Part shown: in pieces, positions 17-50,165 of the stretch
How positions within the stretch are numbered: position 1 is the stretch's first letter
Layout of the letters: every line of letters starts with the position of its first letter
Source of the DNA: a phage
Length of the DNA: 64,000 bases
Strand: one strand, 5' to 3'
Sequence record: OZ335958.1
The notes under the pieces: generated by a model
The model's database searches: none
What the model saw: only the letters and a program-made list of their open reading frames with translations
What the model was told of the DNA's origin: nothing
Position numbers and translations under genes: made by a program

Positions 17-859
17 TTAATCAACTGCTATTGGATGAATAGCATTAAACTTATGAAACGCTTCTGATTTTTCTTTGCGCGAAACACACATGCGAAGAAC
101 CTTTAATGGTTCGTCTTCTTCACCCAACGATTTTCTCTTTTCAATATTCAATGTTTTCCAACGAGCTTGCTCTGGAAACTCTCTATTGATTTGCTCAAGA
201 GCTCTATTATGTTTTGAATTACTACGAATTGAACTGCACCCGCCCGGAGCCTGTGCTTTTCCAGATACAACCAGATATTTGAACAAGGCCAAATGTGGAT
301 AACCTTGATTAATTAAATTGAGAAATGCATACATATCTTCGCATAAATCAATTTTTCCATACCCAATTTGTTCTGTCGTAAGTTTTCCGAGGTCATACCA
401 AGTATTCGTGAATCCATATGAATTTTCACGATAATTACCCCAAGATGAAGTAATTTTAAAAATAGGCAGACGAGCATGACCATGATAATACCCGCAATCC
501 ATGGCATCTTCAACGTATTGAATCAATTCATAGAACTGTTCACGAGTTAATTGATTAATTTTATCTACGCAGCGACGATCATCTTTCTTTCGCATTGAAC
601 TCATACGAATAGTAGTATCATCATCAATCATCCAAATTCGTTGACCTGCATACATATCAGTAATTGCTTTACGAGTACCAGCAATTCCGTTAACATCATC
701 AGGAATAGTTATAATTTTAGCTCTAGACCCGTAAGCGTCATAATAAGCCTTTTCTTCATGTTCACGTACTACAATATGTGGTTCATAATCAGTCGGAAAC
801 ATATCAAGGGCAGAAACTGCCCCTACGCGCTGATAGCTTGGAATTACGAATTGAATCAT
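17..859 (-). CDS. putative DNA-modifying glycosyltransferase at the beta-gt locus (about 280 aa, not T4 Bgt-like)
   Basis: Track ORF 17..865 begins at GTG; first ATG at 859 overlaps gene 42 stop (ATGA junction). DDD motif (IWMIDDDTT). Position next to gene 42 matches the T-even glucosyltransferase locus. Confidence 0.45.
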   Translation of the reverse strand: MIQFVIPSYQRVGAVSALDMFPTDYEPHIVVREHEEKAYYDAYGSRAKIITIPDDVNGIAGTRKAITDMYAGQRIWMIDDDTTIRMSSMRKKDDRRCVDKINQLTREQFYELIQYVEDAMDCGYYHGHARLPIFKITSSWGNYRENSYGFTNTWYDLGKLTTEQIGYGKIDLCEDMYAFLNLINQGYPHLALFKYLVVSGKAQAPGGCSSIRSNSKHNRALEQINREFPEQARWKTLNIEKRKSLGEEDEPLKVLRMCVSRKEKSEAFHKFNAIHPIAVD

Positions 860-1596
860 TTCCACTCACCGTTATAATCTTTTTTCGCAATATGAGTTTC
901 GCCAGTTTTCCACCAATGGTCAACCAAATAAAAATGACGGGAATACACATGAAGGCTTCCGACATTCCATATAATGGAACCTGCTTTATACTGACGAGTT
1001 GAATCACCTGCATTCAAATCAGATACTAATTTATCTAGTACGTATTTTTGCCATGCATAATCATTACGGAATCCGAAGACCACGTCATTTGAACGCATGC
1101 TTACTACTGCATTGACTTTCTTATCACGAATCAGGTACTGTACTGTATTCGTACACATGAAATCTGACATACCATCTTTATTGTAGTCAAACTGCATGGA
1201 TGGACGAGTATAAATCATGATACCGCGTCGAGAATCAGGATTTTGACCAAGTTCAGCTAAACACATATCATACTGGGCATAGTTATCTTCTGACCAGATG
1301 GCCCAACCATAATTCGAGTTAATTTCGCCTTTAGAAGATGCTACCTGTTGCCAAATCTTTGGTGTTTCACCTGGAATATCTTTAACAAACAGACTTTGAG
1401 ACTTATACCATTCAAGTTCACGTTGAATGTATTCATCATTAAGAGCGCCAAAAATAAAAGGTTCATCTGCTACAAATGATGCACCAATAATTTCAATAGT
1501 TTTAACACCAGTTTTATCAATTACGAAATCTTTTTCCTTTAATGCAAGACCCAAATCAAGACGGATTTCTTCAACTGTCATATAATCGTTAATCAT
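856..1596 (-). CDS. 42: dCMP hydroxymethylase
   Basis: 246-aa ORF, ATG start; length and sequence recognised as T4 gp42; gene order 42-imm-43. Confidence 0.9.
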   Translation of the reverse strand: MINDYMTVEEIRLDLGLALKEKDFVIDKTGVKTIEIIGASFVADEPFIFGALNDEYIQRELEWYKSQSLFVKDIPGETPKIWQQVASSKGEINSNYGWAIWSEDNYAQYDMCLAELGQNPDSRRGIMIYTRPSMQFDYNKDGMSDFMCTNTVQYLIRDKKVNAVVSMRSNDVVFGFRNDYAWQKYVLDKLVSDLNAGDSTRQYKAGSIIWNVGSLHVYSRHFYLVDHWWKTGETHIAKKDYNGEWK

Positions 1597-2423: not shown

Positions 2424-2453
2424 ATAGTACCACAGAGGAACAGTCTTGTAAAC
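2424..2453 (-). promoter_or_regulatory. T4 early-type promoter (GTTTAC -35, 18-bp spacer, TACTAT -10)
   Basis: Minus-strand GTTTAC at 2453..2448 and TACTAT at 2429..2424; one of about eleven copies of the same 50-bp motif family. Confidence 0.5.
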
Positions 2454-11982: not shown

Positions 11983-12000
11983 AAAGGGCCGAAGCCCTTT
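11983..12000 (-). other. intercistronic UUCG-tetraloop RNA hairpin (agt-47 junction)
   Basis: Minus-strand AAAGGGC-UUCG-GCCCUUU overlapping agt stop. Confidence 0.5.
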
Positions 12001-13201
12001 ATTTTGTAATAATGTCAAACTGTTCTTTAAAGCAGAAGCTTGAATCTTGATGCTGATACAAAAATTCATAAGCTTTTTCGCGTTCACGGTCATAAAGAGC
12101 TCGGTCAGATGACAGTTCTTTAATACGTTCAAATGTTGATTCCATGTCATTTTCATCAAACCAAACGATACCGCTATCATGTGAAATTAACGGAGTATTA
12201 TCAACACGGAATTTTAAATTTTCACCAGTAGATTTCCAAAATACTGGAATTGTTCCACATGCACCAAGCTCGAGATGAGTATATTCTAAAGAACGCTGTA
12301 GATATTTTTTGTCCAACTTACTCAGCTGATAACCAAATCCGGATTTACTCATGCGTTCAAGCATTTCGCTATTTACATAACGGTCAAGAATTTGCGTTGG
12401 CAAATTAGGAGCAATTTTAATTTGGTCTACTTGATGAAGACGATAATACTCATATGGAATTCCTTTTTCTTTAATAGGAATGAACGCTGGAGAACGTTCC
12501 AGACCTTCCATAATAGTACTTAGCCCAGCAGGTTTAAGATGTTTTTCGTGAAAATCAAACATCTGATAAAAACCTTTCCATGTAGTCGTACGACCAATCC
12601 AACGGTTGACATTCATGTTAATTTCAGAAACATCTTTCCAGTAGGTTGATCGAACCTTAGCAATATCCATAGGAGGCTGAAAGTTGTATACAGTCGGTGC
12701 TTCTTCAATATCGTCAAACAGTGAAACAGTTTCTGGATACCATTCTTTCATCAGAACTTTATTAAAATCACCATTATCAGAATGACTAAAAATAACATCA
12801 GCTCGGCGAACAGTTTCTTCTAATCCCAAATTTCGGCGCAAAGAAAGAGAAGAATGGTCATGTTGATAAACTACAACACGAACCGAAGGTTTAATGTTAT
12901 CAATAATTTTTTTATAGTTATTAATAGTGTCTTCTTCGACTGAAGTAGCAGGAACTGAATTGATAATTAGAATATCACAATCATTTACCAGCTTAAGTGT
13001 TTTATCGTATTCTTTTGCCAATAAAACCGGAATTGAAAATGATTTATAATCATGCGCGCAATTACGGGTAAATGATTTATCTTTAGCATAAACCAAAGTT
13101 ACTTCATGACCATTTTTAATAAACCAATCACGTTGCTCAAGAGAAAATTTAGTTACGCCACAACCTTCAAGACCTCGAGCCATAAAAATGCATACTTTCA
13201 T
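11999..13201 (-). CDS. agt: DNA alpha-glucosyltransferase
   Basis: 400-aa ORF, N-terminus ..CIFMARGLEGCGVTKFSLEQRDWFIKNGHEV recognised as T4 Agt. Confidence 0.9.
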   Translation of the reverse strand: MKVCIFMARGLEGCGVTKFSLEQRDWFIKNGHEVTLVYAKDKSFTRNCAHDYKSFSIPVLLAKEYDKTLKLVNDCDILIINSVPATSVEEDTINNYKKIIDNIKPSVRVVVYQHDHSSLSLRRNLGLEETVRRADVIFSHSDNGDFNKVLMKEWYPETVSLFDDIEEAPTVYNFQPPMDIAKVRSTYWKDVSEINMNVNRWIGRTTTWKGFYQMFDFHEKHLKPAGLSTIMEGLERSPAFIPIKEKGIPYEYYRLHQVDQIKIAPNLPTQILDRYVNSEMLERMSKSGFGYQLSKLDKKYLQRSLEYTHLELGACGTIPVFWKSTGENLKFRVDNTPLISHDSGIVWFDENDMESTFERIKELSSDRALYDREREKAYEFLYQHQDSSFCFKEQFDIITK

Positions 13202-27405: not shown

Positions 27406-27435
27406 ATAGTACCACAGAGGAACAGTCTTGTAAAC
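27406..27435 (-). promoter_or_regulatory. T4 early-type promoter
   Basis: Minus-strand GTTTAC (27435..27430), 18 bp, TACTAT (27411..27406). Confidence 0.5.
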
Positions 27436-39542: not shown

Positions 39543-40016
39543 TTATTTGAATGATTTGACGTACTGAATAGAGCCTTTGCTATTCACGAAAGCGATTTTA
39601 CCATTTTTGTTATACATGGTAGCAGTACGCTGATAGCCATAAGTTTGCTTACCAGATTGATAACCAACTAGTGCGAAATTATCTTCACCCATTTTATTCT
39701 GCTTAGCGCGGATACGTTCATGACCGTGCGCCATAAGAACCTTAGCATCACCAGTTGCAATGGATCTACGAGTTTTTTCATCTTCAACTGTATTAACAAA
39801 GTCGTCAAATGAATCAAATTTAGCATGAGATTTATTATACAGTTTTCCATCTACTGCATAATTATATCCCTGTACATCCATCTCAACTTCTGTACCATCA
39901 TCTAATACAGCAGTGATTTTTTGACCTTTTTTAAATTTCAAAAGATCAGTAAAAGATTCAGCAATAATTTGAGAATTAATAGCTGCTTCAGTGATAAATT
40001 CTTGATATGTTTTCAT
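39543..40016 (-). CDS. internal-protein-like capsid-targeted protein
   Basis: 157 aa; N-terminus MKTYQEFITEA matches the T4 internal protein capsid targeting sequence; body unlike IPI/II/III. Confidence 0.55.
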   Translation of the reverse strand: MKTYQEFITEAAINSQIIAESFTDLLKFKKGQKITAVLDDGTEVEMDVQGYNYAVDGKLYNKSHAKFDSFDDFVNTVEDEKTRRSIATGDAKVLMAHGHERIRAKQNKMGEDNFALVGYQSGKQTYGYQRTATMYNKNGKIAFVNSKGSIQYVKSFK

Positions 40017-40025
40017 GTGTTTCCT

Positions 40026-40442
40026 TTAAATGTAAATATTTTTGCCGTAGTATTTATACCAGTGTGGCTTCATTAAAATTTTTTCATCGAGTCGTTGTTG
40101 ACTCAATTTAATAGCCGATTTGCATTGGTTATAATCATTTTTCCATTCTGCTGGAATATCGCTGATGTCAGGAACTTCAGTATCTTTTATACTAAACCCA
40201 CGTTTTAAGCATTCCGCTATAATGTCTGATTGACGCTTTCGCAAAAATTCTAACTTATCATAAAAGAACGTAACATGACCAGAACCTAAAATAAACTCGG
40301 AAGATATTTTAAAATCTTTAACCCGCTTACCATTTGCCACATGTTTACGAACTATACCAAAAACACGTGGCAATTCACGGTATTCTGCGATTAAATGTTG
40401 ATCAGCAAGTTCAGATACTAAAGTCAAATTAATACGAGTCAT
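40026..40442 (-). CDS. denV: endonuclease V (pyrimidine dimer DNA glycosylase)
   Basis: 138-aa [31 protein letters not shown] recognised as T4 DenV. Confidence 0.85.
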
Positions 40443-40500: not shown

Positions 40501-41031
<531 letters not shown>

Positions 41032-44518: not shown

Positions 44519-44992
44519 TTATTTGATTTGTTTAGCAGACCAAATGCGGTCTTTAATAATTTTTTGAATGTCTTCAACATACTCAAGAGAGTGAACGTGT
44601 GGATTATCTTTGAAACTATAAGCACGGGCTAACTTTTGGCCTTCGGTTTTGATTACTAAAAGCTCTTTAAGGATAGCTTCATATTTAGCGATAATTCCTT
44701 TAACGATATTTTTTTCTTGTGCCGCTTTAGGATCTGCTTTAGGAGCAGGTTTACCCGAAGGCTTTGCAAAAGCAGCTCCAGTAGCAACTAAACTTTTCCA
44801 GGCCATACTAACTGCATTTCCCGTAAATCCTTCTGCTTTCATGTCGCGAGCAAATTGGAATCGTGATTCGTCAGAAGCATCTTTATAGGAATATTTACCC
44901 GCTGCAATGGCTGCTTTTGCGACAGCTTGAATTTCGGTGCTAGATGCTTCATTTAACACCGCTTCATTTAAAAATTGAGCATATGATTTCAT
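44519..44992 (-). CDS. internal-protein-like capsid-targeted protein
   Basis: 157 aa; N-terminus MKSYAQFLNEA resembles the internal protein targeting sequence; Ala/Lys-rich; own late promoter. Confidence 0.5.
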   Translation of the reverse strand: MKSYAQFLNEAVLNEASSTEIQAVAKAAIAAGKYSYKDASDESRFQFARDMKAEGFTGNAVSMAWKSLVATGAAFAKPSGKPAPKADPKAAQEKNIVKGIIAKYEAILKELLVIKTEGQKLARAYSFKDNPHVHSLEYVEDIQKIIKDRIWSAKQIK

Positions 44993-45032: not shown

Positions 45033-45040
45033 TATTTATA
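45033..45040 (-). promoter_or_regulatory. late promoter TATAAATA
   Basis: Minus-strand TATAAATA about 40 nt upstream of the 44992 start codon. Confidence 0.5.
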
Positions 45041-45743: not shown

Positions 45744-45820
45744 TGGTCGAGGCAGTAGGGATCGAACCTACGACCCAGGACTTAGAAGGTCCTTGCTCTT
45801 CCTTCTGAGCTATGCCTCGG
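45744..45820 (-). tRNA. tRNA-Arg (anticodon UCU)
   Basis: Cloverleaf folded by hand; anticodon loop CUUCUAA; CCA encoded. Confidence 0.8.
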
Positions 45821-45823
45821 ATT

Positions 45824-45898
45824 TGGCGGACGTGATAGGATTCGAACCTATAACCAATCGCTTAACAGGCGATCGCTCTGCCATTGAGCTACACATCC
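45824..45898 (-). tRNA. tRNA-Asn (anticodon GUU)
   Basis: Cloverleaf folded by hand; anticodon stem AUCGC/GCGAU, loop CUGUUAA; T-loop UUCGAAU; CCA encoded. Confidence 0.65.
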
Positions 45899-45903
45899 AA
45901 ATT

Positions 45904-45989
45904 GGTGGGGAGTGATGGAGTCGAACCACCCGAGTCGCAATGACAATGGATTTACAGTCCACACCGCTACCTCTACGGGATAACTCCCC
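45904..45989 (-). tRNA. tRNA-Tyr (anticodon GUA), type II
   Basis: 86 nt; anticodon loop CUGUAAA; long variable arm; CCA encoded. Confidence 0.65.
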
Positions 45990-45997
45990 AAATTAAT

Positions 45998-46073
45998 TTG
46001 GTGGCCCTGGGTGGAATTGAACCACCATCTGGCGATTATGAGTCGCTTGCTTGAACCTTCCAGCTACAGGGCC
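45998..46073 (-). tRNA. tRNA with CAU anticodon (Ile2-type or Met)
   Basis: Anticodon loop CUCAUAA; T-arm GGUGG-UUCAAUU-CCACC; CCA encoded. Confidence 0.65.
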
Positions 46074-46074
46074 T

Positions 46075-46150
46075 TGGTGCTGATTGACGGAATCGAACCG
46101 CCGACCTTCTCATTACAAGTGAGTTGCTCTACCTACTGAGCTAAATCAGC
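46075..46150 (-). tRNA. tRNA-Thr (anticodon UGU)
   Basis: Anticodon loop CUUGUAA; 1 nt from the preceding tRNA. Confidence 0.75.
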
Positions 46151-46155
46151 AAAAC

Positions 46156-46245
46156 TGGCGGAGGCGATAGGATTTGAACCTATGAGTCGCCGGAGCGACT
46201 GCCGGTTTTCAAGACCGGTGCATTAAACCACTCTGCCACGCCTCC
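46156..46245 (-). tRNA. tRNA-Ser (anticodon UGA), type II
   Basis: 90 nt; anticodon loop CUUGAAA; sequence recognised as T4 tRNA-Ser. Confidence 0.85.
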
Positions 46246-46247
46246 AG

Positions 46248-46321
46248 TCTCCATACAAGGATTTGAACCTTGGACCTCCTGATCCCAAATCAGGCGCTCT
46301 ACCAAACTGAGCTACACGGAG
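46248..46321 (-). tRNA. tRNA-Pro (anticodon UGG), CCA not encoded
   Basis: Anticodon loop UUUGGGA; 2 nt upstream of tRNA-Ser (dimeric precursor arrangement). Confidence 0.75.
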
Positions 46322-46331
46322 TAAATTAAAT

Positions 46332-46405
<74 letters not shown>

Positions 46406-46410
46406 AAATT

Positions 46411-46497
46411 TGGTGCGAGAAGTGGGACTCGAACCCACAAGGAAATCATTCCGCAGCATTTTAAGTGCTGTGCCTTTACCAATTTGACCATTCTCGC
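46411..46497 (-). tRNA. tRNA-Leu (anticodon UAA), type II
   Basis: 87 nt; anticodon loop CUUAAAA; long variable arm. Confidence 0.8.
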
Positions 46498-46498
46498 G

Positions 46499-46571
46499 CT
46501 GGGAATAAAGGACTCGAACCTTTGCATCCTGGAATCAAAATCCAGTGCCTTACCAACTTGGCTAATTCCCA
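46499..46571 (-). tRNA. tRNA-Gln (anticodon UUG), CCA not encoded
   Basis: U1-A72 acceptor pair, anticodon loop UUUUGAU; 1 nt from tRNA-Leu (Gln-Leu dimer). Confidence 0.75.
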
Positions 46572-47469: not shown

Positions 47470-47868
47470 TCAGCCTTCATCAACAATAGTGTGAGTATTG
47501 GCATTTACGATTTGCCACCAATCAAAGCGATTAGAATCCATCGGTTTGTTTTCATTTTCTTTGATAATGTCACGGAGTTCATCTTCAGAGAATGCTTTAG
47601 CAATTAAATCGGTATACCCACCACGGGGATAATAATTATCACCTGCAAACAAAAGGAAATTTACCTTCCCGGAAGGAACATATGCTTCCTTAGGATACTT
47701 GTTTCCTGCGTGGTCAACCACTTCAATATAACGGTAAGGAATATCGGTTCTTTCAACCCATTGCCATGCCGCTGCAGGGGAATCGAAAGCATCTACACCT
47801 AAACGATTATCTTCATCTTTAGACGGATTATTTTCGTAATCCGCATATACATAATATTCAACGTTCAT
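47470..47868 (-). CDS. hypothetical protein
   Basis: 132-aa acidic ORF. Confidence 0.45.
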   Translation of the reverse strand: MNVEYYVYADYENNPSKDEDNRLGVDAFDSPAAAWQWVERTDIPYRYIEVVDHAGNKYPKEAYVPSGKVNFLLFAGDNYYPRGGYTDLIAKAFSEDELRDIIKENENKPMDSNRFDWWQIVNANTHTIVDEG

Positions 47869-48056
47869 TATTCACCTTTAGAAATTTTATCCATAACAAT
47901 AGCAATTAAACCAATTAAAAATGCTACTACAAGTGAAAAAACATTTTCTGCCGTAGTCAATAATCCGCATATAAATCCAACAAACATTGAAAAACTGAAA
48001 GCGGAAGCAGAAATTGCAATAGCAACATTTCGAATTAATTCACAACGTTTCATTTT
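47868..48056 (-). CDS. small membrane protein
   Basis: Internal ATG (MKRCELIRNVAIAISASAF..., 62 aa) downstream of promoter; track ORF extends to 48194 through promoter DNA. Confidence 0.4.
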   Translation of the reverse strand, partial: KMKRCELIRNVAIAISASAFSFSMFVGFICGLLTTAENVFSLVVAFLIGLIAIVMDKISKGE

Positions 48057-48080
48057 ATTCTCCTCAGTAGTTGATAGGGT

Positions 48081-48110
48081 AATAGTATCACTACCCCATC
48101 TAAAAGTAAA
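48081..48110 (-). promoter_or_regulatory. T4 early-type promoter (GTAAAT variant)
   Basis: Minus-strand ATTTAC (48110..48105), 18 bp, TACTAT (48086..48081). Confidence 0.4.
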
Positions 48111-48111
48111 T

Positions 48112-48345
48112 TTATTTTTTACGAAAAATTGATTTATTTTCTGCTGCCCATTTTTCAATAACTGCAGCAGGACCAGTAACAACAATTTTATCACCGTAAT
48201 CTTCTGCGGCGAGTTGACCGAAATTATCTAATGCATCACGAAGAACTCCATGAGGCATTTCACCCATTTTATCTTTCTTGCCGGTGTAAATAAACTCAAC
48301 TTTTACATCAGAAGATTCAGCGATAAATTCTTGATAAGTTTTCAT
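48112..48345 (-). CDS. internal-protein-like small protein (IPI position)
   Basis: ATG at 48345 gives MKTYQEFIAESSDV... (77 aa), exact capsid-targeting N-terminus; body unlike T4 IPI as recalled. Confidence 0.55.
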   Translation of the reverse strand: MKTYQEFIAESSDVKVEFIYTGKKDKMGEMPHGVLRDALDNFGQLAAEDYGDKIVVTGPAAVIEKWAAENKSIFRKK

Positions 48346-48382
48346 TTTAGTTTCCATTCGATTGTTTTGTTTTGATAGGGTA

Positions 48383-48412
48383 ATAGTATCACAACTAAAA
48401 CCCTATGTAAAC
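48383..48412 (-). promoter_or_regulatory. T4 early-type promoter
   Basis: Minus-strand GTTTAC (48412..48407), 18 bp, TACTAT (48388..48383); 7-bp inverted repeat flanks the -10. Confidence 0.5.
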
Positions 48413-48424
48413 AACTTTGTGAAA

Positions 48425-48682
48425 TTATTTTAAATCTTCTAATCGTTTCTTCATCTTAGAACCATTTTTAGCAATTTCTCCTGCATCGGAGCATAATGCT
48501 AAAAGTGCTTTAACTTTCGTTTGGTCTCCTTTAAAAGATGAAGGATCTACTGCAGCAGCAAGTTCTTTAATACGAGAGAAAAGACGCTCAGCTTCAGCTA
48601 AAGCCATTCCAAGCTTTACTTCCATACCGTGGGAAGATTCAGTGATAGTAGTTTTTGCAGCAAACTCTTTGAAAGTTTTCAT
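48425..48682 (-). CDS. internal-protein-like small protein
   Basis: 85 aa, N-terminus MKTFKEFAAKTTITES (targeting-sequence-like), helical Ala/Lys-rich body. Confidence 0.45.
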   Translation of the reverse strand: MKTFKEFAAKTTITESSHGMEVKLGMALAEAERLFSRIKELAAAVDPSSFKGDQTKVKALLALCSDAGEIAKNGSKMKKRLEDLK

Positions 48683-48702
48683 TTTATTTTCCTAATTAAT
48701 TT

Positions 48703-48742
48703 TGATGAGGTAATAGTATCACTACCTCATCAGCATGTAAAC
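48703..48742 (-). promoter_or_regulatory. early-type promoter with 10-bp perfect inverted repeat around the -10
   Basis: Arms TGATGAGGTA (48703..48712) and TACCTCATCA (48724..48733); TACTAT at 48718..48713; GTTTAC at 48742..48737. Confidence 0.5.
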
Positions 48743-48754
48743 AACTTTGTGAAA

Positions 48755-49439
<685 letters not shown>

Positions 49440-49440
<1 letters not shown>

Positions 49441-50165
49441 TATAGTACCTTTAGTGTATTTTTAATTTTAGAAAAAAGTTCTTCAAGAGAACCATCGTTT
49501 GTAATTACTAAATCGCCATCACGAATTGGCAATCCAGCTTCTGTAATATGAGTATCATTGGATTTTTGACCAGGACGAACTACATGAATTACTGTAGCAC
49601 CCATCGCCCTAGCCGCATCCATTTCATGATCTTGACGAGTATCAGGAACGATATAATAATCATAACCTGAGTTAAATTTATCAAGATAATCTAAAGCAAA
49701 TAATTTTACCCAATACATGCGGTCGAAGTTATTAACAATCAAATCCGTACCTAGGGCTTGCATCAGACGACGGATTGACCATTGATCTTCAATATTATTT
49801 ATAACGTCAGCAATCTTGTTAAATGCTACGAAATTAACTGATTCTTTTCCTTCGTCATCAAAAACAAACACACCTTTAATTGGGCTTTTACTATTAAGAT
49901 AGCAAAATGCTTGTTCCATAATCGTAATTACTTCTAATTTAGTCAGATTTAAATTAGTCTCACGATCATAGTCAATTCCTTCAAACTCTCTACGAGTTAA
50001 GCAAGGATAGTCAGTGTTTGCTGCAAATACAGACCATGCATAAGCCAATGCATCCTTAATAGGACCAGCAAGTTGATATTTAACTGCAGAATAATTATTC
50101 ATGATAAAATCTGCAGTAGTATCTTTTCCACTACGCTTTACACCACTTAAAAAGATTAGTTTCAT
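49440..50165 (-). CDS. 1: deoxynucleoside monophosphate kinase
   Basis: 241 aa, P-loop GVKRSGKDT; T4 gp1 length and position. Confidence 0.85.

What the first reader, a model, noticed from the sequence alone, without database searches (positions are those of the whole stretch)
48112..48682. Two small internal-protein-like genes at the ipI locus, each with its own early promoter
ORF 48112..48345 starts MKTYQEFIAESS (exact targeting-sequence match) and ORF 48425..48682 starts MKTFKEFAAKTT. Each is preceded by a GTTTAC / 18 bp / TACTAT early promoter. The T4 ipI locus carries a single 95-aa IPI; here there appear to be two different small cargo proteins, suggesting locus diversification that may track host defence repertoire.
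Basis: partly seen in the sequence, partly recalled or inferred. Interest (0 to 1): 0.55.

Follow-up and report, generated by a model that had tools for sequence, protein, structure and literature searches.

The report
Known T6-type internal protein genes ip5–ip6
The two small genes are real, but they are the long-known internal-protein genes ip5 and ip6 of T-even phages, in the same arrangement as classical phage T6; a 2025 preprint reports a 97%-identical ip6 product as an inhibitor of the E. coli McrBC restriction enzyme, so this is an ordinary, already described locus.

Summary
Observation confirmed. Both ORFs lie on the minus strand of a Tequatrovirus window, between 57B/Acb1 and trna.4, where T4 has ipI. 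Each has a capsid-targeting leader ending in the gp21 protease motif (MKTYQEFIAE|S; MKTFKEFAAKTTITE|S). Each follows a T4-type early promoter (GTTTAC-N18-TACTAT) that overlaps a stem-loop.

ORF2 is Ip5 (98-99% to T2 and T6, 94% to RB70 Ip5). ORF1 is Ip6 (96% to T6 Ip6). Phage T6 has exactly ip5-ip6 here, and 214 phage records carry the same 1.4-kb arrangement, many annotated as internal head or virion proteins. Papers read here credit Repoila et al. 1994 with the polymorphic IP loci, the conserved leader and the PeSL-like flanking elements.

Neither protein resembles IPI beyond the leader. ORF1 is 75/77 identical to Bas37_0260, which a 2025 preprint reports as a McrBC type IV restriction inhibitor. 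Ip5 has no assigned target. T2 and T6 carry it and are still restricted by GmrSD-ECOR21 and GmrSD-ECOR17.

Predicted folds are generic: ferredoxin-like for Ip6, a helical hairpin for Ip5. Virion packaging is inferred, not shown. Novelty: already known. Interest is low.

In passing: a widespread 'hypothetical' protein (44519-44992) has a CTS-like leader and a late-promoter motif.

The parts
48425..48682 (-). ip5 CDS (85 aa). The predicted leader is residues 1-15, MKTFKEFAAKTTITE, with cleavage before S16. The predicted mature Ip5* is 70 aa, 7.5 kDa, pI 9.2.
   Evidence: ORF. phrog_3499 'internal head protein', E=3.9e-49. 98-99% identical to Ip5 of T2 and T6 and 94% to Ip5 of RB70. 84/85 identical to bas37_0261. 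ITE|S is invariant while the leader length varies. AF2 model is a helical hairpin, pLDDT 72. Size and pI.
48112..48345 (-). ip6 CDS (77 aa). The predicted leader is residues 1-10, MKTYQEFIAE, with cleavage before S11. The predicted mature Ip6* is 67 aa, 7.4 kDa, pI 6.5.
   Evidence: ORF. phrog_8111 'internal virion protein', E=5.1e-52. Named ip6 in VR7, JK08 and T6. 75/77 identical to Bas37_0260, the reported McrBC inhibitor. AF2 pLDDT 82, ferredoxin-like fold. BFVD top hit is VR7 Ip6, TM 0.95.
48713..48742 (-). T4-type early promoter of ip5: GTTTAC-N18-TACTAT, with TG before the -10 hexamer.
   Evidence: Nearly identical to the T4 57B-ipI intergenic promoter. An equivalent promoter is annotated in phage ASO78A.
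48703..48732 (-). Stem-loop (13 bp) overlapping the -10 element of the ip5 promoter. It has no U-tract.
   Evidence: Inverted repeat I16. RNA fold -17.4 kcal/mol, z = -3.7. Not called as an intrinsic terminator. Annotated as a terminator by WebGeSTer in ASO78A.
48383..48412 (-). T4-type early promoter of ip6: GTTTAC-N18-TACTAT.
   Evidence: Nearly identical to the promoter in the T4 ipI-trna.4 spacer.
48367..48414 (-). Stem-loop between ip5 and ip6, overlapping the ip6 promoter.
   Evidence: RNA fold -18.1 kcal/mol, z = -3.2. The stem arms differ from cassette 1 on both sides (ATAGGGT/ACCCTAT against GATGAGG/CCTCATC).
48082..48111 (-). Third cassette promoter (ATTTAC-N18-TACTAT), ahead of trna.4 and directly after the ip6 stop codon.
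   Evidence: 1 mismatch. Stem-loop at 48073-48100, z = -3.15. The 3' part is identical to the T4 ipI-trna.4 spacer.
48700..48770 (-). Copy 1 of the 71-nt conserved cassette (the other copies are at 48370-48440 and 48069-48139). The candidate recombination block reaches into the last codons of 57B and ip5, both of which end ...DLK*.
   Evidence: Direct repeat family D1, 61-100% identity. Alignment with the T4 cassettes.
48755..49210 (-). 57B = Acb1 (anti-CBASS nuclease), the upstream neighbour that fixes the locus.
   Evidence: Pfam PF23474 Acb1, E=2.6e-60. Synteny with T4 57B.
47868..48050 (-). trna.4 (60-aa predicted membrane protein), the downstream neighbour that fixes the locus.
   Evidence: phrog_1692, E=9.7e-34. 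Annotated as a T4 Trna.4 homologue in ASO78A, T2 and T6.

Best explanation
What it is: the segment is the 'ipI' hyperplastic locus of a T-even (Tequatrovirus) phage in its T6-type configuration. Read on the minus strand, it runs 57B/Acb1 - [early promoter + stem-loop] - ip5 - [early promoter + stem-loop] - ip6 - [early promoter + stem-loop] - trna.4.

How the proteins are delivered: Ip5 and Ip6 are two unrelated small internal (ejection) proteins. Each is made with an N-terminal capsid-targeting sequence that docks it to the scaffolding core of the prohead. The gp21 prohead protease removes the leader after L/I-x-E (after E10 in Ip6, after E15 in Ip5). The ~7.5-kDa mature proteins then stay in the DNA-filled head, by analogy with T4 IPs at some hundreds of copies, and are ejected with the DNA. 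They can therefore act before any phage gene is expressed.

What they do: Ip6 most likely neutralises the host McrBC type IV restriction enzyme. This phage is likely to need that, because it has T2/T6-type glucosylation genes (a-gt plus ba-gt), which in T2 and T6 leave part of the hmC unglucosylated. Ip5 most likely neutralises another modification-dependent nuclease or defence that has not been identified.

How the locus varies: the ~70-bp conserved promoter/stem-loop blocks on either side of each gene serve as homology for recombination, which swaps, adds or deletes IP cassettes between co-infecting T-even phages.

Shown here: gene identity, leaders, promoters, stem-loops, cassette homology with T4, and distribution.
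Shown elsewhere: the role of the CTS and the gp21 motif in T4 IPIII; McrBC sensitivity of a Bas37 mutant lacking the 97%-identical gene.
Inferred: packaging and cleavage of these two proteins, direct binding of Ip6 to McrBC, any function for Ip5, and recombination at the cassettes.
For: Identity of the genes:
- 214 phage records carry >=80% of the 1.4-kb locus. Ip6 is found in 246 records and Ip5-like proteins in 497, with names ip5 and ip6 in T2, T6, RB14, RB51, VR7 and JK08.
- the UniRef entry 'Ip5, Enterobacteria phage RB70'.
- T6 has ip5-ip6 and T2 has ip5-ip7 at this spot.

Leaders:
- the Ip6 leader is identical to the T4 IPII/IPIII CTS; the Ip5 leader resembles the 19-aa T4 IPI leader.
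- ITE|S is invariant while the leader length varies.
- the motif occurs 3 times against ~0.005 expected.
- PMC9026906: CTS of 10-19 residues, positions 4 and 7 for targeting, 8 and 10 for processing, gp21 motif L/I-X-E, about 300 copies per head.

Promoters and cassettes.

Function:
- bioRxiv 10.1101/2025.11.20.689424: Bas37 has two genes at the ipI locus, and the bas37_0260 knockout is specifically McrBC-sensitive.
- Bas37 is phage KarlGJung, MZ501089. bas37_0260 occupies the ip6 position and is 75/77 identical to ORF1.
- Glucosylation genes: Pfam AGT at 11999-13201, and a glycosyltransferase at 17-865 that is 99% identical to the gene annotated ba-gt in SHFML-26.
- PMC12373910: Ip1, Ip2 and Ip3 each inhibit one GmrSD.
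- PMC2839356: the IP loci are flanked by PeSL-like promoter/stem-loop elements, and more than 30 IP variants are known.
Against: - No virion proteomics for Ip5 or Ip6 was found in the searchable literature, so packaging and cleavage rest on the leader alone.
- The McrBC result is a preprint on another phage. ORF1 differs from that protein at residues 11-12, directly after the predicted cleavage site.
- No late-promoter motif (TATAAATA) lies directly upstream of ip5 or ip6; the nearest upstream copy on the minus strand is inside gene 1 at 49796-49803. How enough protein reaches late proheads is therefore inferred: persistence of early protein, or read-through.
- The stem-loops lack a U-tract and are not called as terminators.
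- Ip5 has no functional evidence. T2 and T6 carry it yet are restricted by GmrSD-ECOR21 and GmrSD-ECOR17. Ten ip genes tested against further GmrSD variants gave no new pairs (PMC12373910).
- The predicted folds are generic and give no mechanistic clue.
Confidence: 0.85

Rival explanations
1. Ip5, and possibly Ip6, is mainly a structural or charge-neutralising head component: a small basic DNA-associated protein that aids DNA condensation or head assembly, like the assembly role described for IPIII, rather than a dedicated anti-defence effector.
For: Mature Ip5 is basic (pI 9.2, 13 K+R in 70 aa) and is predicted to be a simple helical hairpin with no specific structural relative. T4 IPs contact DNA phosphates through lysines, and IPIII mutants show head-assembly defects (PMC3012670; PMC9026906). 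No target is known for Ip5.
Against: The gene comes and goes between close relatives: ip5 only, ip6 only, ipI+ip6, ip5+ip7. That is the pattern of an accessory, host-range gene, not a structural requirement. Every IP with a reported function (Ip1, Ip2, Ip3, Bas37_0260) is an anti-restriction protein. Mature Ip6 is near neutral (pI 6.5).
Confidence: 0.1
2. The proteins act mainly as ordinary early cytoplasmic proteins, made de novo from their early promoters. Under this reading the leader is a vestige and little or no protein is packaged.
For: Both genes have strong T4-type early promoters and no late-promoter motif directly upstream. The other CTS gene of the window, ip4, has TATAAATA 35 nt upstream.
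Against: The leader, including the positions needed for targeting (4, 7) and processing (L/I-x-E), is strictly conserved across alleles, while the Ip5 leader varies in length around an invariant cleavage site. A type IV nuclease attacks incoming DNA before early proteins can accumulate. T4 ipI sits behind a nearly identical promoter cassette, and IPI is a proven packaged and injected protein (PMC3012670).
Confidence: 0.05

Closest known systems
Phage T6 ipI-locus configuration (57B - ip5 - ip6 - trna.4), MH550421
   Same: Same gene order, same flanks, and the same two proteins (Ip5 99%, Ip6 96% identical). The same arrangement is found in Bas35, Bas36 and Bas37 (Bas42 has a more diverged ip6 allele), SHFML-26, UGKSEcP1/2 and more than 200 other records.
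   Different: Only point substitutions: Ip6 has S11-S12 instead of T11-A12, and Ip5 has A9 instead of T9.
Bas37_0260 (phage KarlGJung), reported McrBC inhibitor (bioRxiv 10.1101/2025.11.20.689424)
   Same: 75/77 identical to ORF1, at the same locus position, with the same leader. Both phages also carry ba-gt.
   Different: Function was not tested for this phage. The two substitutions fall at P1'-P2' of the predicted gp21 cleavage site.
T4 IPI/IPI* (GmrSD-CT596 inhibitor; phrog_4363; NMR structure, 76-aa mature form)
   Same: Same genomic slot, a nearly identical flanking promoter/stem-loop cassette, an N-terminal CTS removed at L/I-x-E, and a mature size of about 70-76 aa. The Ip5 leader is of the IPI type.
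T4 IPII / IPIII (inhibitors of GmrSD-ECOR21 and GmrSD-ECOR17)
   Same: The Ip6 leader MKTYQEFIAE is identical to theirs. Same class of injected anti-restriction protein (PMC12373910).
   Different: They are encoded at the other IP locus (e-denV). The mature parts are unrelated. This window has no ipII or ipIII, and carries ip4 downstream of denV instead.
PeSL mobile regulatory cassettes of RB49/phi1-type phages (Arbiol et al. 2010, PMC2839356)
   Same: An early promoter combined with a stem-loop flanks small accessory ORFs and is thought to mediate modular shuffling.
   Different: According to that paper, the T-even IP-associated elements are analogues, not homologues: they are built on T4 early promoters with weaker, AT-rich stems. 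Here the stems lack U-tracts.

Membership tests
T-even internal (CTS-bearing, ejected) proteins | N-terminal capsid-targeting sequence of 10-19 residues resembling MKTYQEFIAE, with aromatic residues at positions 4 and 7 | tested here: met
   Ip6 has MKTYQEFIAE, identical to T4 IPII/IPIII. Ip5 has MKTFKEF..., as in T4 IPI. The motif occurs 3 times against ~0.005 expected. Criteria taken from PMC9026906.
T-even internal (CTS-bearing, ejected) proteins | gp21 prohead-protease site L/I-x-E at the end of the leader | tested here: met
   I8-A9-E10|S in Ip6 and I13-T14-E15|S in Ip5. ITE|S is invariant although the leader length varies.
T-even internal (CTS-bearing, ejected) proteins | Encoded in one of the two polymorphic IP loci, flanked by conserved early-promoter/stem-loop blocks | tested here: met
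   Located between 57B and trna.4, as T4 ipI is. There are three 71-nt cassettes, nearly identical to the T4 cassettes.
T-even internal (CTS-bearing, ejected) proteins | Physically present in the mature head in processed form and ejected with the DNA | not testable with these tools
   This needs virion mass spectrometry or injection assays. No such data for Ip5 or Ip6 were found.
IPI family (GmrSD-CT596 inhibitor, phrog_4363) | Sequence homology of the mature part to T4 IPI* | tested here: not met
   BLASTP aligns only the leader (14 and 26 residues). The best PHROGs are 8111 and 3499, not 4363.
Ip6 family (phrog_8111; includes the reported McrBC inhibitor Bas37_0260) | Full-length sequence identity to named Ip6 proteins and to Bas37_0260 | tested here: met
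   phrog_8111 E=5.1e-52 over 1-77/77. 97% to Bas37_0260 and 96% to T6 Ip6. The AF2 model matches VR7 Ip6 with TM 0.95.
Ip6 family (phrog_8111; includes the reported McrBC inhibitor Bas37_0260) | Protects the phage from McrBC | not testable with these tools
   Reported only for the Bas37 knockout in the preprint. Carried over to this phage by 97% identity.
Ip5 family (phrog_3499) | Full-length sequence identity to named Ip5 proteins (RB70, T2, T6, RB14, RB51) | tested here: met
   phrog_3499 E=3.9e-49 over 1-85/85. 94-99% identity to Ip5 of RB70, T2 and T6.
Intrinsic (rho-independent) terminators | GC-rich hairpin followed by a U-tract on the transcribed strand | tested here: not met
   The hairpins are significant (z = -3.2 to -3.7), but they are followed by A-rich sequence and are not called by the terminator scan.

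The most novel reading that the evidence does not exclude
Ip5, which is carried by T2, T6 and hundreds of Tequatroviruses, is an injected inhibitor of a defence system not yet paired with any internal protein. The evidence argues against GmrSD-ECOR21 and GmrSD-ECOR17 as targets, since T2 and T6 remain sensitive to them, and it is presumably not McrBC, which is Ip6's reported target. Acb1, Ip5 and Ip6 together would then form a compact three-gene anti-defence island whose cassette content predicts host range.
Probability: 0.45. Interest if true: 0.4.

Novelty: already known. Interest (0 to 1): 0.15.

Why it matters
For a genome scan this is a true positive of a known kind. The practical value is in annotation and phage-therapy host-range prediction. 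The IP cassette content of a T-even phage (here Ip4, Ip5 and Ip6, with no Ip1, Ip2 or Ip3) suggests which type IV restriction systems it may overcome: McrBC probably yes, the three characterised GmrSD variants probably not. The one open question of some value is the target of Ip5, which is still unknown even though the gene is present in the classical phages T2 and T6.

Tried and rejected
- Pfam: no family for either protein above threshold.
- PDB sequence search: nothing below E = 0.65.
- Foldseek on the Ip5 model: only generic helical hairpins and designed proteins, E > 0.6.
- BFVD: only Ip6 itself.
- Rfam: nothing in 47800-49300, only the tRNA cluster further downstream.
- Terminator scan: none at the cassettes.
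- Late-promoter motif: none directly upstream of ip5 or ip6.
- Idea that the ORFs are diverged IPI variants: rejected.
- Idea that the two ORFs are paralogues: rejected, since only 12 leader residues align.
- Papers that could not be read because they are not held: Repoila 1994 (PMC395341), Miller 2003 (PMC150520), Bair 2007 (PMC1868451). Statements about Repoila 1994 therefore rest on how PMC2839356, PMC12373910 and PMC3012670 cite it, and on my own recollection of its abstract.
- Supplements of PMC12373910: no 'ip5' or 'ip6' strings, so I cannot say whether these were among the ten ip genes tested.
- A literature search for 'ip5/ip6' was swamped by inositol phosphates.
- Two guesses at the Bas37 accession failed before the BASEL supplement gave MZ501089.

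Full report
**1. What is in the sequence**

The window is a T4-like phage of the genus Tequatrovirus. A 1.4-kb query around the finding matches 792 phage records, the best at 99.4% (UGKSEcP1/2, SHFML-26).

The two ORFs of the finding exist at the stated coordinates but on the minus strand. 48112-48345 encodes 77 aa (MKTYQEFIAESS...) and 48425-48682 encodes 85 aa (MKTFKEFAAKTT...).

Read along the minus strand, the neighbourhood is:
- gene 1 (dNMP kinase), 49440-50165
- 57A, 49210-49440
- 57B, 48755-49210, which Pfam identifies as Acb1, the anti-CBASS nuclease (E = 2.6e-60)
- ORF2, then ORF1
- trna.4 (47868-48050), trna.3, trna.2
- a block of ten tRNA genes

T4 has a single 95-aa ipI between 57B and trna.4.

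**2. Are the features more than chance?**

- The leader motif MKT[YF][QK]EF occurs three times in the six-frame translation, each time at the start of an ORF. About 0.005 (loose pattern) or 0 (strict pattern) are expected from 200 Markov shuffles.
- GTTTAC-N18-TACTAT (<=1 mismatch) occurs 13 times, all on the minus strand, against 0.33 expected. Two exact copies precede ORF2 and ORF1 (48713-48742 and 48383-48412). A one-mismatch copy (48082-48111) precedes trna.4.
- The generic sigma-70 scan reads the first two as TTTACA-17-TACTAT with an extended TG.
- Each promoter overlaps a stem-loop whose RNA fold is better than all or all but one of 200 shuffles (z = -3.7, -3.2, -3.15). The stem arms differ between cassettes on both sides.
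- None of the stems is followed by a U-tract, and the terminator scan does not call them.
- Promoter and stem-loop form a 71-nt block present three times.
- The block upstream of ORF2 is nearly identical to T4's 57B-ipI spacer. The block between ORF2 and ORF1 matches the promoter half of T4's ipI-trna.4 spacer. The block after ORF1 matches the distal half of that spacer.

So each gene is a self-contained cassette inserted between the same conserved junctions that flank ipI in T4.

**3. Identity of the two genes**

ORF2 is Ip5:
- phrog_3499 'internal head protein', full length, E = 3.9e-49.
- 98-99% identical to the proteins named Ip5 in T2 and T6, and 94% to the UniRef entry 'Ip5, Enterobacteria phage RB70'.

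ORF1 is Ip6:
- phrog_8111 'internal virion protein', E = 5.1e-52.
- Named ip6 in VR7, JK08 and T6.

Phage T6 has exactly 57B-ip5-ip6-trna.4 and T2 has ip5-ip7. In the BASEL phages I found:
- ip5+ip6 in Bas35, Bas36, Bas37 and Bas42
- ip5 alone in Bas38
- ip6 alone in Bas45
- ipI+ip6 in Bas44

In total 214 records carry >=80% of the 1.4-kb arrangement. Ip6 occurs in 246 records, Ip5 at >=80% identity in about 270, and IPI in about 280. The T6-type configuration is therefore about as common as the T4-type.

Neither protein is an IPI variant. BLASTP aligns only 14 and 26 N-terminal residues to IPI and 12 residues to each other.

The 'exact' leader match of ORF1 is to IPII/IPIII (MKTYQEFIAE|A). 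T4 IPI has the 19-residue leader MKTFKEFTSTTTPVSTITE|A, of which ORF2's MKTFKEFAAKTTITE|S is a shorter version. Across Ip5 alleles the leader varies in length, but ITE|S is invariant.

**4. What is already known**

- Arbiol et al. 2010 (PMC2839356) state that Repoila et al. 1994 observed PeSL-like sequences at the two highly variable IP loci of the T-even phages. They also state that more than 30 IP variants are known, and that these elements may be responsible for IP shuffling.
- Silas et al. 2025 (PMC12373910) cite the same paper for at least 10 IPs with a conserved packaging signal. They show that Ip1, Ip2 and Ip3 each inhibit one specific GmrSD type IV restriction enzyme, and they suggest that all proteins of the two IP loci target such enzymes.
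- The Black review (PMC9026906) gives the rules used here: CTS of 10-19 residues, positions 4 and 7 for targeting, 8 and 10 for processing, the gp21 motif L/I-X-E, and about 300 copies of each IP per head.
[quoted passage not shown] It also reports that the bas37_0260 knockout becomes specifically sensitive to McrBC.

Bas37 is phage KarlGJung, MZ501089 (BASEL supplement). In that record bas37_0260 is the 77-aa gene next to trna.4. It is 75/77 identical to ORF1, and bas37_0261 is 84/85 identical to ORF2.

**5. Mechanism**

*Shown or directly readable:* the leaders, the cleavage motifs, the promoters, the cassette structure, and the orthology to a reported McrBC inhibitor.

*Inferred:*
- Both proteins bind the prohead core through the CTS.
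- gp21 cuts them to 67 aa (Ip6*, pI 6.5) and 70 aa (Ip5*, pI 9.2).
- They stay in the filled head and are ejected with the DNA.

A rationale for a McrBC inhibitor is that this phage, like Bas37, has a-gt (Pfam AGT; 11999-13201). Next to gene 42 it also has a glycosyltransferase that is 99% identical to the gene annotated as beta-glucosyl-HMC-alpha-glucosyltransferase in SHFML-26 (17-865), rather than T4's b-gt. T2 and T6 have this enzyme set (PMC6024577). From my own knowledge, not tested here, they leave about a quarter of hmC unglucosylated, and unglucosylated hmC is a McrBC substrate.

For Ip5 there is only negative information. T2 and T6 carry it yet are restricted by GmrSD-ECOR21 and GmrSD-ECOR17.

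Ip6 alleles fall into two types. They are identical through residue 45 apart from occasional substitutions at positions 11, 12, 21 and 41, and differ mainly in residues 46-70. That region may be the specificity surface.

*Open point on timing.* No TATAAATA late-promoter motif lies directly upstream of ip5 or ip6. The nearest upstream copy on the minus strand is inside gene 1 (49796-49803). By contrast ip4 (39543-40016) has one 35 nt upstream. Supply of protein to late proheads must therefore come from early synthesis or from read-through across the U-tract-less stem-loops. T4 ipI sits behind a nearly identical cassette and IPI is a proven packaged protein, so this does not argue against packaging.

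**6. Verdict**

The finding is already known at every level:
- named genes
- a classical phage with the same arrangement
- a described mechanism of locus polymorphism
- a reported function for one of the two proteins (preprint)

Interest is low. What remains open is the target of Ip5, and direct proof that Ip5 and Ip6 are packaged.

**7. Seen in passing**

- The window's third CTS gene is Ip4 (RB51 nomenclature; DUF7412). It lies downstream of denV, and there is no ipII or ipIII between e and denV.
- A 157-aa protein at 44519-44992 is annotated 'hypothetical' in all 25 records listed of the 512 that match. It starts MKSYAQFLNEAVLNE|A.
  - Its family keeps MK[ST]Y.EFL, then a spacer of variable length, then an invariant Glu.
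  - A TATAAATA motif lies 41 nt upstream.
  - It looks like an unrecognised internal protein outside the two canonical IP loci.

Noticed in passing
window 44519-44992 (-): A 157-aa protein starts MKSYAQFLNEAVLNE|ASS. This is a CTS-like leader: Y4, F7 and L8-x-E10, plus L13-x-E15. Family members keep MK[ST]Y.EFL, then a 0-5-aa spacer, then an invariant Glu, as IP leaders do. A TATAAATA late-promoter motif lies at 45033-45040(-), 41 nt upstream. It belongs to phrog_2280 (unknown function), has no Pfam match, and matches 512 phage records, the 25 listed all annotated 'hypothetical protein' or 'Phage protein'. It is a candidate unrecognised internal protein at a third locus, between the e region and the tRNA genes.
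   Followed up: partly
window 39543-40016 (-): The third CTS gene of the window (MKTYQEFITE|A, 157 aa) is Ip4 (RB51 name; DUF7412, phrog_3155). It lies downstream of denV (40026-40442). There is no ipII or ipIII between e (40501-40995) and denV, unlike T4. A TATAAATA motif at 40051-40058(-) lies just upstream.
   Followed up: partly
window 48755-49210 (-): Gene 57B is Acb1, the anti-CBASS nuclease (Pfam E = 2.6e-60). RefSeq relatives label it 'RNA ligase'. Together with Ip5 and Ip6 it forms a compact anti-defence cluster.
   Followed up: partly
window 17-865 (-) and 11999-13201 (-): The phage has a-gt (Pfam AGT) and, next to gene 42, a TAGT-family glycosyltransferase that is 99% identical to the gene annotated ba-gt in SHFML-26. 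This is the T2/T6-type glucosylation gene set rather than T4's b-gt, and it fits the presence of a McrBC inhibitor.
   Followed up: partly
window 2424-2453 and 27406-27435 (-): Two early promoters 25 kb apart are identical over all 30 nt (GTTTACAAGACTGTTCCTCTGTGGTACTAT). All 13 promoter matches in the window are on the minus strand.
   Followed up: no
window 48112-48345 (-), residues 46-70 of Ip6: Ip6 alleles fall into two types that are about 80% identical. They are identical through residue 45 apart from occasional substitutions at positions 11, 12, 21 and 41, and differ mainly in residues 46-70 (AAEDYGDKIVVTGPAAV..AAENK against GGEEFGDYFVIYGPAKV..ADKYK). This could be a specificity surface or a recombination mosaic.
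   Followed up: partly
window 48346-48357 (-): An in-frame ATG 12 nt upstream of the ip6 start (METKMKTYQ...) has led some gene callers to extended products of 81-98 aa, such as P0006-P0008. These would bury the N-terminal targeting sequence.
   Followed up: partly
L010 (MZ501106, Bas43 TadeuszReichstein) 874-1329: In this relative, 57B/Acb1 is split into two short ORFs (a truncated Acb1) upstream of ip6. The phage may therefore have lost anti-CBASS activity.
   Followed up: no
window 45744-46571 (-): The tRNA cluster has ten contiguous genes, including tRNA-Asn and tRNA-Tyr. It has no segB-like homing endonuclease inside it, unlike T4 and the otherwise 99%-identical SHFML-26.
   Followed up: no
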